IMG/VR virus record: IMGVR_UViG_2529292913_000008
Length of the DNA stretch: 64,000 bases
Source: a virus
Lineage: Duplodnaviria; Heunggongvirae; Uroviricota; Caudoviricetes
Reading direction: 5' to 3' (one strand)
Translations under genes and position numbers: made by a program
The notes under the pieces: generated by a model
What the model was told of the DNA's origin: nothing
The model's input: the letters and a program-made list of their open reading frames with translations, nothing else
Database searches by the model: none
Part shown: positions 36,041 to 41,191 of the stretch, in pieces
Position numbering within the stretch: position 1 is the stretch's first letter
Layout: each line of letters begins with the position of its first letter

Positions 36041-36067
36041 CGGTTCTCATCAAGCAGTGGTATTGAT

Positions 36068-36595
36068 ATGCAAGAAGAGAAACAACACTACCTCTACGTT
36101 CTGGTGCCGGAGAACGGAGATACTTTTAAAATCGGCATTTCATGTGGTCCATTGGCACGGTTTAAAGGGCTACAAGTGAGTCCCGATTTTGCGCTTTCAC
36201 GGGTCTATCGTGGTACGCGTTTGGCAATGGTTAATCTTGAGCGGGCTTTACACGCAACCTTTTTCCCCTGGAATGCGCCGTGGGAGAAAAGCGCAGGTGG
36301 CGGGCATACTGAATGGTTTACACGAGAGTGTCTTGATAAGGTTTTGGCTCATATCGAATATCTAAATGATATGTGGGGAGGGATTCTCGAGCGCATTAAG
36401 TCGAATGATTTACTTCAGCGTCCAGTAGATGCTGCTTGCTCTTTCGAAAAAGAGCTGGATGTTACTTCTATCGTGACTTTCAAAGATGACGCAGGAATGA
36501 GGGACGTGGCTTATGTCTCCATATCTGGCTATGAACCGGACGCGATCCGCGCTCAGTGTGAATTGCTGAAAGCAATGTTTATGCTTCGGACTTAA
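36068..36595 (+). CDS. T5orf172/GIY-YIG-like domain protein
   Basis: N-terminal YLYVLVPENGDTFKIGIS...RF pattern. Confidence 0.45.
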   Translation: MQEEKQHYLYVLVPENGDTFKIGISCGPLARFKGLQVSPDFALSRVYRGTRLAMVNLERALHATFFPWNAPWEKSAGGGHTEWFTRECLDKVLAHIEYLNDMWGGILERIKSNDLLQRPVDAACSFEKELDVTSIVTFKDDAGMRDVAYVSISGYEPDAIRAQCELLKAMFMLRT

Positions 36596-36616
36596 TATCC
36601 CTGGGATACAGGGCGG

Positions 36617-36877
36617 GTGTGCTTCCCTATGGAAGAGTTAACCGCCACCATTGATTCCCAGCTTTACCACGATAATCCAGAGAAGTTTTTTAGCCTTTTA
36701 GCCGGTAATGGGCTTAACTGTGTGTCCGGGCTGGGGCGAAGTAGAATCCAACATGCCTCGCTCTTCGGTCCCATCTTTTACGATCGACATGGGTACTTTG
36801 AGGCTGAACTTCCGGCGCTTACGCGTGCTATAGATACTATCGATTTCGAACGATTATTCGCTGCTCTTAGCAAATAA
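36617..36877 (+). CDS. hypothetical protein (86 aa)
   Basis: ORF followed by terminator GCCCC-TGAAC-GGGGC-T6 (36885-36905). Confidence 0.4.
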   Translation: MCFPMEELTATIDSQLYHDNPEKFFSLLAGNGLNCVSGLGRSRIQHASLFGPIFYDRHGYFEAELPALTRAIDTIDFERLFAALSK

Positions 36878-37045
36878 CACTGATGCCCCTGAACGGGGCT
36901 TTTTTGTGCCCTCCTTGTAACTCTCAATCGTGCAAAATGAACCAAACACGCAGAGAATGCTATGTACAAGCATCTACGCATACATTATTATTTTATGCAG
37001 CTTTTTTAATTAAATTCAAAAATACAGCATAAAGGATGACTTTCG

Positions 37046-38242
37046 ATGAGTGATTCCAGCCAGCTTCACAAGGTTGCTCAAAGAGCAAATAGAATGCTCA
37101 ATGTTCTGACTGAACAAGTACAGTTGCAAAAGGATGAGCTACACGCGAACGAGTTTTACCAGGTCTATGCGAAAGCGGCACTGGCAAAATTGCCTCTACT
37201 GACTCGAGCGAACGTTGACTATGCTGTAAGTGAAATGGAAGAAAAGGGTTATGTTTTCGATAAGCGCCCTGCTGGCTCTTCAATGAAATATGCGATGTCA
37301 ATTCAGAACATCATTGACATATATGAACATCGCGGAGTGCCAAAATACCGGGATCGCTACAGCGAAGCGTATGTGATTTTCATCTCCAATCTTAAAGGCG
37401 GTGTGTCAAAAACTGTATCGACGGTTTCTCTGGCGCATGCAATGCGTGCTCACCCTCATCTTCTGATGGAAGATTTAAGGATTCTGGTTATTGACCTTGA
37501 TCCGCAATCTTCAGCAACGATGTTTTTAAGCCATAAACACTCTATTGGTATCGTAAACGCAACATCTGCACAGGCTATGTTGCAGAATGTAAGCCGTGAA
37601 GAGCTGTTAGAGGAGTTTATTGTTCCTTCTGTTGTACCTGGGGTTGACGTTATGCCTGCGTCGATTGACGATGCCTTTATTGCATCCGATTGGAGAGAGC
37701 TGTGCAATGAGCATCTACCGGGTCAGAACATCCATGCTGTCCTGAAAGAAAATGTGATTGATAAGCTGAAGAGCGATTATGATTTTATCCTCGTTGATAG
37801 TGGTCCTCACCTTGACGCCTTCCTGAAAAATGCTTTGGCCTCGGCCAATATACTGTTTACACCTCTGCCGCCAGCAACTGTCGATTTCCACTCATCGCTT
37901 AAATACGTTGCCCGCCTTCCTGAGTTGGTGAAACTCATTTCGGATGAAGGCTGCGAGTGCCAGCTTGCGACTAACATTGGTTTTATGTCCAAGTTGAGTA
38001 ACAAGGCAGATCATAAGTATTGCCATAGCCTGGCTAAAGAAGTGTTCGGTGGGGATATGCTCGATGTCGTCCTCCCTCGCCTTGACGGTTTTGAACGTTG
38101 CGGCGAGTCTTTTGACACTGTTATTTCAGCTAACCCGGCAACGTATGTTGGTAGTGCTGATGCATTGAAGAACGCGCGAATTGCCGCGGAAGATTTTGCT
38201 AAAGCAGTTTTTGACCGTATTGAATTTATCAGATCTAACTGA
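37046..38242 (+). CDS. parA: partition ATPase ParA (type Ia with N-terminal DNA-binding extension)
   Basis: 398 aa; deviant Walker A KGGVSKT. Confidence 0.92.
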   Translation: MSDSSQLHKVAQRANRMLNVLTEQVQLQKDELHANEFYQVYAKAALAKLPLLTRANVDYAVSEMEEKGYVFDKRPAGSSMKYAMSIQNIIDIYEHRGVPKYRDRYSEAYVIFISNLKGGVSKTVSTVSLAHAMRAHPHLLMEDLRILVIDLDPQSSATMFLSHKHSIGIVNATSAQAMLQNVSREELLEEFIVPSVVPGVDVMPASIDDAFIASDWRELCNEHLPGQNIHAVLKENVIDKLKSDYDFILVDSGPHLDAFLKNALASANILFTPLPPATVDFHSSLKYVARLPELVKLISDEGCECQLATNIGFMSKLSNKADHKYCHSLAKEVFGGDMLDVVLPRLDGFERCGESFDTVISANPATYVGSADALKNARIAAEDFAKAVFDRIEFIRSN

Positions 38243-38258
38243 GGAGTAAGAAACCCCC

Positions 38259-39260
38259 ATGTCAAAGAAAAACAGACCAACAATTGGGCGAACCCTTAAT
38301 CCTTCAATATTAAGCGGATTTGATAGTTCTTCAGCCTCTGGCGATCGAGTCGAGCAGGTATTCAAGTTATCAACTGGTCGCCAGGCCACATTTATTGAAG
38401 AGGTAATACCTCCGAACCAGGTAGAAAGCGATACCTTTGTTGATCAGCATAACAACGGGCGTGACCAGGCATCTCTTACGCCAAAATCATTAAAAAGTAT
38501 CCGAAGCACTATTAAGCATCAGCAATTTTACCCTGCAATAGGTGTTAGACGGGCAACAGGGAAAATTGAAATTTTGGATGGTTCCCGGCGTCGAGCTTCT
38601 GCCATCTTAGAGAACGTAGGGTTGCGGGTTTTAGTCACGGACCAGGAGATCAGCGTTCAGGAAGCGCTAAATTTAGCGAAAGACGTTCAGACAGCATTGC
38701 AGCACAGCATTCGAGAAATAGGTCTGCGTTTGATGCGAATGAAAAATGATGGGATGAGTCAGAAGGATATTGCAGCCAAAGAAGGGCTGTCTCAGGCGAA
38801 GGTCACGCGTGCTCTCCAGGCAGCGAGTGCTCCGGAAGAATTAGTCGCCCTTTTCCCTGTGCAGTCGGAATTAACCTTTTCGGACTACAAAACGCTTTGT
38901 GCTGTTGGCGACGAAATGGGGAACAAGAATTTAGAGTTTGATCAGCTTATTCAAAATATATCCCCGGAAATAAACGACATCTTATCCATTGAAGAAATGG
39001 CCGAAGATGAAGTTAAAAATAAAATCCTGCGCTTGATAACAAAGGAAGCCTCACTACTCACGGATAAAGGTTCTAAAGATAAGTCCGTAGTTACTGAATT
39101 ATGGAAATTTGAGGACAAGGATCGCTTTGCAAGGAAGCGCGTGAAAGGCCGTGCATTTTCTTATGAGTTTAATCGACTTTCAAAAGAGCTACAGGAAGAA
39201 CTCGACAGGATGATTGGGCATATCCTTAGAAAGAGCCTCGATAAAAAGCCGAAGCCTTAA
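38259..39260 (+). CDS. parB: partition protein ParB
   Basis: 333 aa; ParB fold, downstream of parA, followed by parS-like site. Confidence 0.9.
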   Translation: MSKKNRPTIGRTLNPSILSGFDSSSASGDRVEQVFKLSTGRQATFIEEVIPPNQVESDTFVDQHNNGRDQASLTPKSLKSIRSTIKHQQFYPAIGVRRATGKIEILDGSRRRASAILENVGLRVLVTDQEISVQEALNLAKDVQTALQHSIREIGLRLMRMKNDGMSQKDIAAKEGLSQAKVTRALQAASAPEELVALFPVQSELTFSDYKTLCAVGDEMGNKNLEFDQLIQNISPEINDILSIEEMAEDEVKNKILRLITKEASLLTDKGSKDKSVVTELWKFEDKDRFARKRVKGRAFSYEFNRLSKELQEELDRMIGHILRKSLDKKPKP

Positions 39261-39261
39261 A

Positions 39262-39350
39262 CTTTCGCCATTCAAATTTCACTATTAAACTACTGTTTTT
39301 AAAGTAAATCCCTCTAAAATTTCAAGGTGAAATCGCCACGACTTCACCTT
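39262..39350 (+). promoter_or_regulatory. parS-like centromere: heptamer ATTTCAC and hexamer TCGCCA boxes flanking an AT-rich segment
   Basis: TCGCCA at 39264 and 39333; ATTTCAC at 39276; GTGAAATCGCCACGACTTCACC at 39327-39348. Confidence 0.7.
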
Positions 39351-39463
39351 GGATTTTACCTTCCTCCCCTACTCCCGAAAAAATAAAAAAATTGCTTGTC
39401 ACGAGAAAGTCAACAAGTGACTTTCAATAAAATCTCTTCCGAAAAGGGATTCACACAAGTGCC

Positions 39464-41191
39464 TTGTGTTTAAGGAAGAGTAAATTGAGTAACTTACGCG
39501 AATACCAGAATCGTATTGCAGATATCGCAAAACGCTCTAAAGCTGTGCTTGGCTGGGCAAGCACTGCGCAGTTCGGTACTGATAACCAATTCATTAAAGA
39601 TGATGCCGCGCGTGCCGCATCTATCCTTGAAGCTGCACGTAAAGACCCGGTTTTTGCGGGTATCTCTGATAATGCCACCGCTCAAATCGCTACAGCGTGG
39701 GCAAGTGCACTGGCTGACTACGCCGCAGCACATAAATCTATGCCGCGTCCGGAAATTCTGGCCTCCTGCCACCAGACGCTGGAAAACTGCCTGATTGAGT
39801 CCACCCGCAATAGCATGGATGCCACTAATAAAGCGATGCTGGAATCCGTCGCAGCAGAGATGATGAGCGTTTCTGACGGTGTTATGCGTCTGCCTTTATT
39901 CCTCGCGATGATCCTGCCTGTTCAGTTGGGGGCAGCTACCGCTGATGCGTGTACCTTCATTCCGGTTACGCGTGACCAGTCCGACATCTATGAAGTCTTT
40001 AACGTGGCAGGTTCCTCTTTTGGTTCTTATGCTGCTGGTGATGTTCTGGACATGCAATCCGTCGGTGTGTACAGCCAGTTACGTCGCCGCTATGTGCTGG
40101 TGGCAAGCTCCGATGGCACCAGCAAAACCGCAACCTTCAAGATGGAAGACTTCGAAGGCCAGAATGTACCAATCCGAAAAGGTCGTACTAACATCTACGT
40201 TAACCGTATTAAGTCTGTTGTTGATAACGGTTCCGGCAGCCTACTTCACTCGTTTACTAATGCTGCTGGTGAGCAAATCACTGTTACCTGCTCTCTGAAC
40301 TACAACATTGGTCAGATTGCCCTGTCGTTCTCCAAAGCGCCGGATAAAGGCACTGAGATCGCAATTGAGACGGAAATCAATATTGAAGCCGCTCCTGAGC
40401 TGATCCCGCTGATCAACCACGAAATGAAGAAATACACCCTGTTCCCAAGCCAGTTCGTTATCGCGGCTGAGCACACGGTACAGGCGGCGTATGAAGCACA
40501 GCGTGAATTTGGTCTGGACCTGGGTTCCCTACAGTTCCGCACCCTGAAGGAATACCTGTCTCATGAACAGGATATGCTGCGTCTTCGCATCATGATCTGG
40601 CGTACTCTTGCGACCGACACCTTTGACATCGCTCTGCCGGTTAACCAGTCCTTTGATGTATGGGCAACCATCATTCGTGGCAAATTCCAGACTGTATATC
40701 GCGACATTATTGAGCGCGTTAAATCTTCTGGTGCGATGGGGATGTTTGCTGGTGCTGATGCAGCATCTTTCTTCAAACAGTTGCCGAAGGATTTCTTCCA
40801 GCCAGCCGAAGACTATATCCAGACTCCGTATGTTCACTACATCGGTACCCTGTTCGGTAACGTGAAAGTGTACGAAGTACCTGCTGGTATTTGTAAGAAC
40901 TTAACGACAGAGAACATTCAGTTCAGCTCGATGGATGTGCTGTGCTACGTCCGTGATGAAAATCCGGGTAAAGCAGGCTTCGTGACTGGTGATGCTGTCC
41001 CGGCCATCCCGTTCCAGCATCCGACCACTCCGGCGCTGGTCAACCGTACCACGCTGTGGGGTTCGGCTATCAACGATATGCACCCACGCAACGGCGCTGA
41101 TTACTTCACTCGTGTAACGCTGACAATGGCCAAAAAAGGCGGGCTTAACTTCATTAGCGGCGACACGATTGATGCCGGTGACTCTGAGTAA
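39464..41191 (+). CDS. phage structural protein, probably major head protein
   Basis: large ORF adjacent to par locus; start uncertain (ATG 39464 or TTG 39485 after AAGGAAG). Confidence 0.55.
   Translation: MCLRKSKLSNLREYQNRIADIAKRSKAVLGWASTAQFGTDNQFIKDDAARAASILEAARKDPVFAGISDNATAQIATAWASALADYAAAHKSMPRPEILASCHQTLENCLIESTRNSMDATNKAMLESVAAEMMSVSDGVMRLPLFLAMILPVQLGAATADACTFIPVTRDQSDIYEVFNVAGSSFGSYAAGDVLDMQSVGVYSQLRRRYVLVASSDGTSKTATFKMEDFEGQNVPIRKGRTNIYVNRIKSVVDNGSGSLLHSFTNAAGEQITVTCSLNYNIGQIALSFSKAPDKGTEIAIETEINIEAAPELIPLINHEMKKYTLFPSQFVIAAEHTVQAAYEAQREFGLDLGSLQFRTLKEYLSHEQDMLRLRIMIWRTLATDTFDIALPVNQSFDVWATIIRGKFQTVYRDIIERVKSSGAMGMFAGADAASFFKQLPKDFFQPAEDYIQTPYVHYIGTLFGNVKVYEVPAGICKNLTTENIQFSSMDVLCYVRDENPGKAGFVTGDAVPAIPFQHPTTPALVNRTTLWGSAINDMHPRNGADYFTRVTLTMAKKGGLNFISGDTIDAGDSE

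What the first reader, a model, noticed from the sequence alone, without database searches (positions are those of the whole stretch)
36068..36877. Two extra genes inserted between incA and parA
A T5orf172/GIY-YIG-like protein and an 86-residue protein sit between the replicon control locus and the partition operon, each with its own terminator. As I recall P1, incA runs almost directly into the par promoter, so this looks like a small insertion, possibly a homing-endonuclease-like or accessory DNA-binding module.
Basis: inference. Interest (0 to 1): 0.4.

Follow-up and report, generated by a model that had tools for sequence, protein, structure and literature searches.

The report
One nuclease gene split by stop
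The "two extra genes" between the replication-control repeats and parA are one 269-codon nuclease-like gene cut in two by a single stop-codon mutation. The gene belongs to a well-known alternative replication cassette (p0111 type) of P1-like phage-plasmids, so the finding is largely ordinary, with one intriguing structural lead.

Summary
They are not two genes. They share a reading frame and are separated only by TAA at 36593-36595. In 354 complete plasmids that codon is AAA (Lys), giving one 269-aa "GIY-YIG nuclease family protein"; the TAA allele is in 3.

It is not a small insertion into a P1 replicon either. The whole block 34695-36943 (origin iterons, repA, incA iterons, this gene, terminator) replaces P1's equivalent block. 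This is the known p0111 replicon type, found in about 400 plasmids.

Three diverged P1-like elements carry homologues at the same place, next to three different Rep types. In a second clade the cassette swaps at the same two boundaries.

The gene is weakly constrained (pN/pS 0.34, against 0.01-0.02 for repA and parA). It has been broken independently at least seven times.

The N-terminus is a T5orf172/GIY-YIG nuclease fold with its conserved residues intact. The orphan C-terminal domain weakly resembles the winged-helix domain of iteron-binding Rep initiators.

Best reading: a free-standing homing-endonuclease-like gene at the edge of an exchangeable replicon cassette, inactivated in this window. 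An iteron-directed nuclease like ICP1 Odn is the more novel alternative. Only one terminator exists, after the second ORF.

The parts
34695..36943 (.). Replicon cassette (p0111 type) that replaces P1's incC-repA-incA block. It has no detectable DNA homology to P1, apart from one 59-nt, 76% match inside repA.
   Evidence: blastn against P1: homology covers 32197-34694 (94.9%) and 36944-40000 (99.1%). The block is 98-100% identical in 404 PLSDB plasmids.
34600..34694 (+). P1-type left part of oriR, retained here: a DnaA box (TTATCCACA at 34600) and a cluster of GATC sites. The left cassette boundary lies at its end.
   Evidence: Read from the sequence. This stretch is still within P1 homology; the P1 annotation of the DnaA box and Dam sites is.
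34710..34810 (+). Five origin (incC-like) iterons, core TTGACTRTRCRCGA, spaced 21-22 bp apart.
   Evidence: the repeat finder family D1; regex scan.
34891..35775 (+). repA, p0111 type, 294 aa. 41% identical to P1 RepA and 84% identical to the Rep of L006.
   Evidence: ORF list. PGAP annotates the same 885-nt CDS as a 'RepB family plasmid replication initiator'. Identities.
35776..36038 (.). incA-like iteron array: two direct and four inverted copies of the same core. The last copy ends about 30 bp before the nuclease-gene ATG.
   Evidence: the repeat finder D1/D4 and the inverted pairs; regex scan.
36068..36877 (+). A single T5orf172/GIY-YIG-family gene of 269 codons, carrying a premature stop in this window (a pseudogene or truncated allele).
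   Evidence: Same frame; PHROG 2876 is matched end to end by the two ORFs. It is one 810-nt CDS (WP_032247076.1) in NZ_CP044294. Alignment A1.
36068..36595 (+). N-terminal fragment (175 aa). It holds the complete T5orf172 nuclease domain (about residues 1-105) plus the linker and roughly the first third of the C-terminal domain.
36593..36595 (+). Premature ochre codon TAA. It is AAA (Lys176) in relatives, so the change is A->T at 36593.
   Evidence: Alignment A1. Exact 31-mer counts in PLSDB: TAA in 3 records, AAA in 354.
36617..36877 (+). It is the last third of the same gene and has no convincing Shine-Dalgarno sequence of its own.
   Evidence: PHROG 2876 positions 184-269. Sequence upstream of the GTG at 36617 and the ATG at 36629. 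PGAP calls an 82-aa 'hypothetical protein' here in NZ_CP043337.
36885..36905 (+). Intrinsic terminator (GCCCC-TGAAC-GGGGC followed by TTTTTTG) that closes the cassette transcript ahead of Ppar.
   Evidence: Terminator scan. An equivalent hairpin plus T-run follows the homologue in L009.
36944..37045 (+). P1 homology resumes here. Contains Ppar and the par operator (-35 at 36963, -10 ending at 36991).
   Evidence: blastn boundary. The promoter-scan hit at 36963-36991 maps exactly onto P1's annotated Ppar.
37046..38242 (+). parA, 99.7% identical to P1 ParA.

Best explanation
Window 36068-36877 is a single gene for a 269-aa protein. Its N-terminal domain (about residues 1-105) belongs to the T5orf172 branch of the GIY-YIG nucleases. 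Its C-terminal domain (about residues 120-269) is an orphan, probably DNA-binding.

The gene is the last component of the p0111-type replicon cassette (origin iterons, repA, incA iterons, this gene, terminator; 34695-36943). In many P1-like phage-plasmids this cassette takes the place of P1's IncY cassette.

In this window a point mutation (AAA->TAA, codon 176) truncates the protein inside the C-terminal domain. The two ORFs are therefore the halves of a broken gene.

The most likely function of the intact gene is a free-standing, homing-endonuclease-like selfish nuclease. It would cut a related P1-like genome that lacks it or carries another cassette. Repair from the donor would then copy the gene, together with the adjacent replicon cassette, between the conserved flanks (the left part of oriR, and Ppar/parA). 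After spreading, such a gene decays.

It is probably transcribed by read-through from the RepA-autoregulated repA promoter, because only 25-35 bp separate the last iteron from its ATG.

Shown: one gene, the nonsense allele, cassette membership, conserved synteny, the nuclease fold with conserved residues, weak constraint, and repeated disruption. Inferred: cleavage activity, its target, homing, and the mode of transcription.
For: One gene, split:
- Both ORFs share a frame and together cover the 269-position PHROG 2876.
- It is a single CDS in NZ_CP044294.
- TAA versus AAA is shown in alignment A1. PLSDB holds 3 records with TAA and 354 with AAA.

Cassette:
- P1 homology breaks at 34694/34695 and resumes at 36944.
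- The block occurs in 404 plasmids at 98-100% identity.

Conserved synteny:
- The only full-length homologues found by HMMER among 1.84 billion cluster representatives are P0004, P0052 and P0053. Each lies between rep/incA and parA in a diverged P1-like element.
- They accompany three Rep types.
- L006 and L007 belong to one clade (ParA 99.7% identical) yet differ by a cassette swap. Its boundaries match those seen between the window and P1: about -176 to -196 before rep, and about -102 to -110 before parA.
- C-terminal domains of the two subfamilies align by hhalign at E = 6e-5 over 111 columns.

Nuclease:
- Pfam T5orf172.
- Y10, K21, G23, R31, E58, H62 and E82 are invariant across 16 homologues.

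Homing-endonuclease signatures, as listed for T5orf172 genes in PMC10448857:
- Variable presence: P1 lacks the gene.
- Position beside essential genes and at an exchange boundary.
- Decay: nonsense mutations at codons 68, 112, 176 and 228; frameshifts at nt 99 and nt 201/237; an IS200/IS605 insertion with a 229-bp deletion.
- Weak constraint: pN/pS 0.34, against 0.02 for repA and 0.01 for parA in the same loci.

Transcription: no terminator was found between repA and the gene, and no + strand promoter upstream of it.
Against: - No cleavage or homing has been demonstrated for this protein or for any close relative. T5orf172 homing in ICP1 is itself only inferred.
- 75-90% of sampled copies with full-length coverage are intact (37 of 48; 23 of 25), and pN/pS is below 1. 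Some purifying selection therefore persists, which could equally reflect a useful function for the host element.
- Nucleotide diversity shows no step at the right cassette boundary.
- P1's incA-Ppar spacer contains no remnant of the gene, so gain versus loss is decided only by parsimony.
Confidence: 0.6

Rival explanations
1. An iteron- or origin-directed nuclease used in conflict between replicons, working like ICP1 Odn. The C-terminal Rep-like winged-helix domain would bind iterons or origin DNA of a competing P1-like replicon. The T5orf172 domain would cut it, either excluding the rival or destroying it, so the gene would act as an active incompatibility weapon. This overlaps with the homing model if repair then copies the cassette.
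For: - Foldseek independently ranks RctB (E 0.012, probability 0.92), the Rep WH1 and RepE54 first.
- The gene lies directly beside the incA iterons and its variants travel with Rep/iteron cassettes.
- Precedent: Odn combines a T5orf172 domain with a RepA_N domain and cleaves the PLE origin in an iteron-dependent way (PMC8263062; PMC10448857).
- The C-terminal domain diverges fast. It is 33% identical between the window type and L006, although their Reps are 84% identical and their iteron cores are the same. That fits a target other than the cognate iterons.
Against: - There is no sequence similarity to the adjacent Rep family (hhalign probability 0.2%). Odn, by contrast, is 42% identical to its target's RepA_N.
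- The domain order is the reverse of Odn's.
- No target is known.
Confidence: 0.2
2. A domesticated, non-cutting accessory factor of the replicon. A T5orf172-derived DNA-binding protein, comparable to PLE CapR, would modulate incA handcuffing, repA expression or Ppar, and so fine-tune copy number or partition.
For: - The gene sits between the copy-control locus and the par promoter and is probably co-transcribed with repA.
- Most copies are intact and pN/pS is below 1.
- Precedent for a domesticated T5orf172-related repressor: CapR (PMC10448857).
Against: - All GIY-YIG/T5orf172 core residues are invariant in homologues, which argues for retained catalysis.
- The gene is dispensable. P1 lacks it, and lineages with stops persist widely: the 175-aa product is on 264 contigs and pO111_2-type alleles are common.
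- Constraint is 15-30 times weaker than on repA and parA.
Confidence: 0.1
3. One reading: two separate small genes, a T5orf172 protein and an 86-residue DNA-binding or accessory protein. Each would have its own terminator, and together they would have been inserted into a P1-type incA-par junction.
For: - PGAP annotates two CDS in records that carry the TAA allele.
- The region is absent from P1.
Against: - The ORFs share a frame and are separated by a single stop. The region is one CDS in about 99% of complete plasmids that carry it.
- There is no terminator after the first ORF.
- The flanking repA and iterons are not P1-type either.
Confidence: 0.03

Closest known systems
p0111-type replicon region of P1-like phage-plasmids (pO111_2 NC_013370, SJ46, RCS47, JL22, phi456)
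   Same: The DNA is 98-100% identical over the whole cassette, including this gene. The literature already notes that repA' (p0111) plus an unknown gene ('gp57' in JL22) replaces P1's repA (PMC9603915).
   Different: This window carries the rare K176* allele: 3 of about 357 PLSDB records scored. pO111_2 and SJ46 carry different stops, at codons 112 and 228.
Free-standing T5orf172 (GIY-YIG superfamily) homing-endonuclease genes of phages such as ICP1 (Barth, Dunham & Seed 2023, PMC10448857); more distantly, the T4 Seg endonucleases
   Same: A nuclease domain at one end and a putative DNA-binding domain at the other. Presence varies between close relatives. Stops and frameshifts are frequent. 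The gene lies next to essential genes and at a boundary of genetic exchange.
   Different: The C-terminal domain is none of the DNA-binding modules described for these genes (CapR, DUF723, DUF4397 zinc fingers, or RepA_N). It has no sequence relatives outside four P1-like lineages. The host here is a plasmid-prophage maintenance region, not a lytic-phage gene cluster. Homing has not been tested.
ICP1 Odn (Gp88), the origin-directed nuclease (Barth et al. 2021, PMC8263062)
   Same: A T5orf172 nuclease joined to a domain related to a replication initiator's DNA-binding domain. It is associated with replicon-type polymorphism.
   Different: - Odn's DNA-binding domain is N-terminal, belongs to the RepA_N family, and is 42% identical to its target's initiator.
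- It shows no sequence similarity to the neighbouring RepA.
P1 (IncY) oriR-repA-incA-parAB region
   Same: Same overall layout and the same flanks. The DnaA-box/GATC part of oriR is 95% identical, and Ppar-parA-parB is 99% identical.
   Different: RepA is 41% identical, the iterons are different, and P1 has a 190-bp non-coding spacer where this gene sits.

Membership tests
T5orf172 domain (Pfam PF10544; GIY-YIG clan) | Match to the family HMM above the curated cut-off | tested here: met
   28.7 bits against a cut-off of 20, residues 8-85. Homologues P0004, P0053, P0054 and others also match.
T5orf172 domain (Pfam PF10544; GIY-YIG clan) | GIY-YIG (URI) alpha/beta fold | tested here: met
T5orf172 domain (Pfam PF10544; GIY-YIG clan) | Conserved core residues: the Tyr of 'GIY', the 'KIG/YIG' strand, and the catalytic Arg and Glu | tested here: met
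   Y10, K21, G23, R31, E58, H62, E82, W83 and F84 are invariant in 16 homologues. Mapping them onto the I-TevI and Odn catalytic residues is by inference from motif order (PMC8263062).
T5orf172 domain (Pfam PF10544; GIY-YIG clan) | Endonuclease activity | not testable with these tools
   Needs biochemistry.
Free-standing homing endonuclease gene | Present or absent at the same locus in otherwise homologous genomes | tested here: met
   P1 lacks it, while the window, L006, L007 and L009 carry it between incA and parA.
Free-standing homing endonuclease gene | Recurrent degeneration (stops, frameshifts, insertions) and relaxed constraint | tested here: met
   At least seven independent disruptions. 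pN/pS is 0.34 against 0.01-0.02 for the neighbouring genes.
Free-standing homing endonuclease gene | Nuclease domain plus a separate sequence-specific DNA-binding domain | tested here: inconclusive
   The C-terminal domain folds confidently (pTM 0.78). It resembles winged-helix DNA-binding domains only weakly and matches no Pfam family.
Free-standing homing endonuclease gene | Cuts the gene-less allele and is inherited preferentially with co-conversion of flanks | not testable with these tools
   Needs crosses and cleavage assays. The diversity profile across the flanks was uninformative.
Odn-like origin-directed nuclease | DNA-binding domain homologous in sequence to a replication initiator's DNA-binding domain | tested here: not met
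   hhalign against the window RepA and against a five-Rep alignment gives probability 0.2%. Only weak fold-level similarity to Rep WH1 is seen.
Odn-like origin-directed nuclease | Iteron-dependent cleavage of a rival origin | not testable with these tools
   Needs biochemistry and genetics.
p0111 replicon type of P1-like phage-plasmids | repA and iteron cassette near-identical to the reference pO111_2 (NC_013370), within a P1-like backbone | tested here: met
   The gene region is 98.8% identical to pO111_2. RepA is at least 99% identical in 394 plasmids. The flanks are P1-like.
P1 IncY replicon | P1-type RepA and 19-bp iterons | tested here: not met
   RepA is 41% identical to P1 RepA, and the iteron core TTGACTATACGCGA differs from P1's.

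The most novel reading that the evidence does not exclude
The intact gene encodes a nuclease whose Rep-WH1-like C-terminal domain recognises the iteron or origin region of rival P1-like replicons. By cutting them it would both enforce exclusion and drive wholesale replacement of the replicon cassette (iterons, repA, incA and the nuclease gene) by gene conversion between the conserved oriR-left and Ppar flanks. That would amount to homing of an entire incompatibility module. It would explain why the same cassette boundaries recur in two P1-like clades, and why IncY and p0111 types coexist at similar frequencies.
Probability: 0.15. Interest if true: 0.7.

Novelty: new member of a known kind. Interest (0 to 1): 0.33.

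Why it matters
The locus is the standard p0111 replicon cassette, seen in hundreds of sequenced P1-like phage-plasmids, many of which carry ESBL or mcr resistance genes. The "two genes" are an annotation artefact of a nonsense allele.

What could matter is the gene's role, which has not been studied. A T5orf172 nuclease sits at the edge of the exchangeable replicon/incompatibility module and is syntenic across diverged P1-like elements. If it drives cassette exchange or attacks rival replicons, it would give a mechanism for how phage-plasmids switch incompatibility type and coexist or compete in one host. It would also extend the idea that nuclease genes mark boundaries of genetic exchange from lytic phages to plasmid maintenance modules.

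Tried and rejected
- PADLOC and NCBIfam scans of both ORFs gave no hits. There is no support for a known defence system.
- PDB sequence search found nothing significant. The best hit was a UPF0213 GIY-YIG protein at E = 0.14.
- hhalign of the full protein, and of its C-terminal domain, against the window RepA and a five-Rep alignment found no similarity.
- I searched P1's incA-Ppar spacer for remnants of the gene (tblastn with four homologues; blastn with word size 7). Nothing scored better than E = 0.3, so a deletion scar is not demonstrable.
- Scans for more diverged family members gave only the close p0111 type or nothing. I scanned genome contigs, IMG/VR three times, metagenome contigs, and PLSDB by tblastn with P0052. 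An N-terminal-domain match in a Flavobacteriaceae MAG and another in a TARA contig are not the same family.
- The sliding-window nucleotide diversity across 57 loci showed no step at the cassette's right edge. It is uninformative for homing.
- The promoter scan found no + strand sigma-70 promoter between repA and the gene. A self-contained transcription unit was therefore dropped in favour of read-through from PrepA.
- I considered programmed read-through of the TAA, or a functional two-subunit split. I rejected both as unsupported: the TAA allele is rare, and other lineages carry different stops at other codons.
- The afdb50 fold library was unavailable.

Full report
**What is in the window.**
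- The region lies in a P1-like phage-plasmid. Window 35700-37200 is 99% identical to phages phi456, SJ46, JL22 and RCS47. Canonical P1 matches only from the par promoter onwards.
- ORFs of 175 aa (36068-36595) and 86 aa (36617-36877) lie between an iteron array that ends at about 36038 and parA at 37046.
- In P1 (NC_005856) the last incA iteron is followed by about 190 bp without any CDS, then Ppar and parA.

**The two ORFs are one gene.**
- Both ORFs are in the same frame and are separated by TAA plus seven codons.
- PHROG 2876 has 269 positions. The first ORF matches positions 1-175 and the second matches 184-269.
- In plasmid p276M-CTX-M-55 the same 810 nt are annotated as one CDS, WP_032247076.1, "GIY-YIG nuclease family protein".
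- The alignment shows one difference at that codon: TAA in the window against AAA in p276M, pO111_2 and phage 673R5.
- Exact 31-mers spanning the codon occur in 3 PLSDB records with TAA and in 354 with AAA. The exact 175-aa product was nevertheless seen on 264 contigs of the large collection, so the allele marks a successful sublineage.
- Only one intrinsic terminator exists, at 36885-36899 plus a T-run. The hairpin after the first ORF has no T-tract and is coding sequence in intact alleles.

**It is a cassette replacement, not a small insertion.**
- blastn against P1 gives homology at 32197-34694 (94.9%) and 36944-40000 (99.1%).
- The 2,249 bp in between replace 1,491 bp of P1.
- The replaced block holds five origin iterons (34710-34810), repA (34891-35775; 41% identical to P1 RepA), the incA-like iterons, the nuclease gene and the terminator.
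- The left boundary lies inside oriR, just after the DnaA box and GATC cluster shared with P1. The right boundary lies 19 bp before the -35 of Ppar.
- The block is 98-100% identical in 404 PLSDB plasmids from Escherichia, Salmonella, Shigella and Klebsiella. These include pO111_2, the reference for the "p0111" replicon type.
[quoted passage not shown] It also reports IncY and p0111 at similar frequencies among P1-like phage-plasmids (PMC9603915).

**The gene is a regular tenant of this locus in P1-like elements.**
- In a collection of 5.8 billion proteins the family consists of one 269-aa cluster (1,241 member sequences), truncated derivatives, and one 44%-identical homologue, P0004.
- An exhaustive HMMER search of 1.84 billion representatives found 76 hits. 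Only P0004 aligned over the full length. The rest matched just the N-terminal ~100 residues.
- P0052 and P0053 align along the whole length in a multiple alignment. Their C-terminal domains match the window-type C-terminal domain by hhalign at E = 6e-5 over 111 columns.
- All three homologues lie between rep/incA and parA in P1-like elements about 70% identical in DNA to the window (loci L006, L007/L008 and L009).
- Their Reps are of three types. L006 is 84% identical to the window RepA, L007 is 83% identical to P1 RepA, and L009 is 41-48% identical to either.
- L006 and L007 belong to one clade (ParA 99.7% and gp23 99.5% identical). They differ by a cassette swap whose boundaries match those between the window and P1: about -176 to -196 before rep and about -102 to -110 before parA.
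- An IncY-like cassette with the gene therefore exists (L007), and canonical P1 is the exception. Parsimony favours loss in P1's lineage. P1's spacer holds no recognisable remnant, and a mobile gene could also have been gained repeatedly.

**Population genetics.**
- Among 50 sequences (IMG/VR, reference plasmids and phages), 37 are intact. Among 25 full-length metagenomic copies, 23 are intact.
- Independent disruptions found:
  - nonsense at codon 68;
  - nonsense at codon 112 (pO111_2 type);
  - nonsense at codon 176 (this window);
  - nonsense at codon 228 (SJ46 type);
  - frameshift at nt 99;
  - frameshifts at nt 201/237 (673R5);
  - an IS200/IS605 insertion with a 229-bp deletion in L052.
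- Segregating sites give 34 synonymous, 36 nonsynonymous and 4 stop changes, so pN/pS is about 0.34.
- In the same loci, repA has 48 synonymous and 4 nonsynonymous changes (0.02). parA has 50 and 1 (0.01).
- The gene is thus real and under some constraint, but that constraint is far weaker than on its neighbours, and the gene is dispensable.

**The protein.**
- The N-terminal domain matches Pfam T5orf172.
- Y10, K21, G23, R31, E58, H62, E82, W83 and F84 are invariant in 16 homologues. These are consistent with the Tyr, Arg and Glu core, whose Glu is required for the T5orf172 nuclease Odn (PMC8263062).
- The C-terminal domain has no Pfam, PHROG-function, NCBIfam or PADLOC assignment.
- Modelled alone it folds confidently (pLDDT 79.7, pTM 0.78).
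- Foldseek independently ranks RctB, Rep WH1 and RepE54 first, but at non-significant E-values (0.012-1) and TM of about 0.35-0.43.
- There is no sequence similarity to the adjacent Rep family.
- I treat "Rep-WH1-like, probably DNA-binding" as a lead, not a result.
- The K176* product keeps the whole nuclease domain but loses the last 94 residues, which is most of this domain. It is therefore probably non-functional (inference).

**Expression (inference).**
- The ATG lies 25-35 bp after the last iteron in the window, L006 and L007.
- No + strand promoter and no terminator were found between repA and the gene. A strong terminator follows it.
- Co-transcription with repA from the RepA-autoregulated promoter is the simplest reading.

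**Mechanism.**
- Barth, Dunham and Seed list genomic signatures of T5orf172 homing-endonuclease genes (PMC10448857):
  - variable presence among close relatives;
  - frameshifts and variable stops;
  - location beside essential genes.

  The same paper reports that such nuclease genes sit at the boundaries of genetic exchange.
- All of these are met here. My best explanation is therefore a free-standing homing-endonuclease-like gene at the right edge of an exchangeable replicon cassette, inactivated in this window.
- The main rival is an Odn-like nuclease aimed at rival replicon origins. It is suggested by the Rep-like fold and by the gene's position beside the iterons.
- A domesticated regulator is a further possibility.
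- None of these can be settled without cleavage, binding and cross experiments.

**Verdict.**
- The locus is a known, very common cassette, and the "two genes" are a pseudogenised allele. The finding as written is of low-to-moderate interest.
- The conserved synteny, the recurring cassette boundaries and the possible Rep-like targeting domain are new observations and worth a modest follow-up.

Noticed in passing
window 34600-34810: The plasmid origin is chimeric. The DnaA box (TTATCCACA at 34600) and the GATC cluster are P1-type (95% identical to P1). The five iterons immediately to their right are p0111-type. The cassette boundary therefore falls inside oriR, between the host-factor part and the Rep-specific part.
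   Followed up: partly
window 35495-35508; L006 7613-7626: An iteron-like sequence (TTGACTATAAGCGA) lies inside the repA coding region. It is conserved at the equivalent position in the 70%-identical element L006.
   Followed up: no
L052 6295-8057 (IMG/VR UViG_2645727563_000002): An IS200/IS605-family element (Y1 TnpA plus TnpB/OrfB) is inserted in the nuclease gene, and 229 bp of the gene are deleted.
   Followed up: yes
L006 6831-9019 vs L007 6656-8944: A second, diverged P1-like clade (draft genomes and Logan assemblies; absent from PLSDB and IMG/VR) shows the same two-type replicon cassette polymorphism as E. coli P1-likes: p0111-like versus IncY-like. In this clade both cassette types carry a T5orf172 gene.
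   Followed up: partly
PLSDB records NZ_CP044294, NC_013370, NZ_CP043337; phage phi456 OR339795: Database labels are misleading. The MOB-suite typing in PLSDB calls this replicon 'IncHI1B'. The phi456 record annotates the nuclease gene as 'terminase small subunit'.
   Followed up: no
window 32250-33500: The left flank (upfB/upfC-like region, including a Gly/Ser-rich 281-aa ORF) is much more diverse among p0111-type loci (pi up to 0.05) than the cassette or the par operon (pi 0.004-0.018).
   Followed up: no
L004 1-1518 (pSvP1_F, NZ_MN510446): The only PLSDB record 100% identical to the window across the cassette has an IS91-family transposase immediately upstream, where the window has P1-like upfA. 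This is a 139-kb IncFIB co-integrate, so the window is not simply that plasmid.
   Followed up: no
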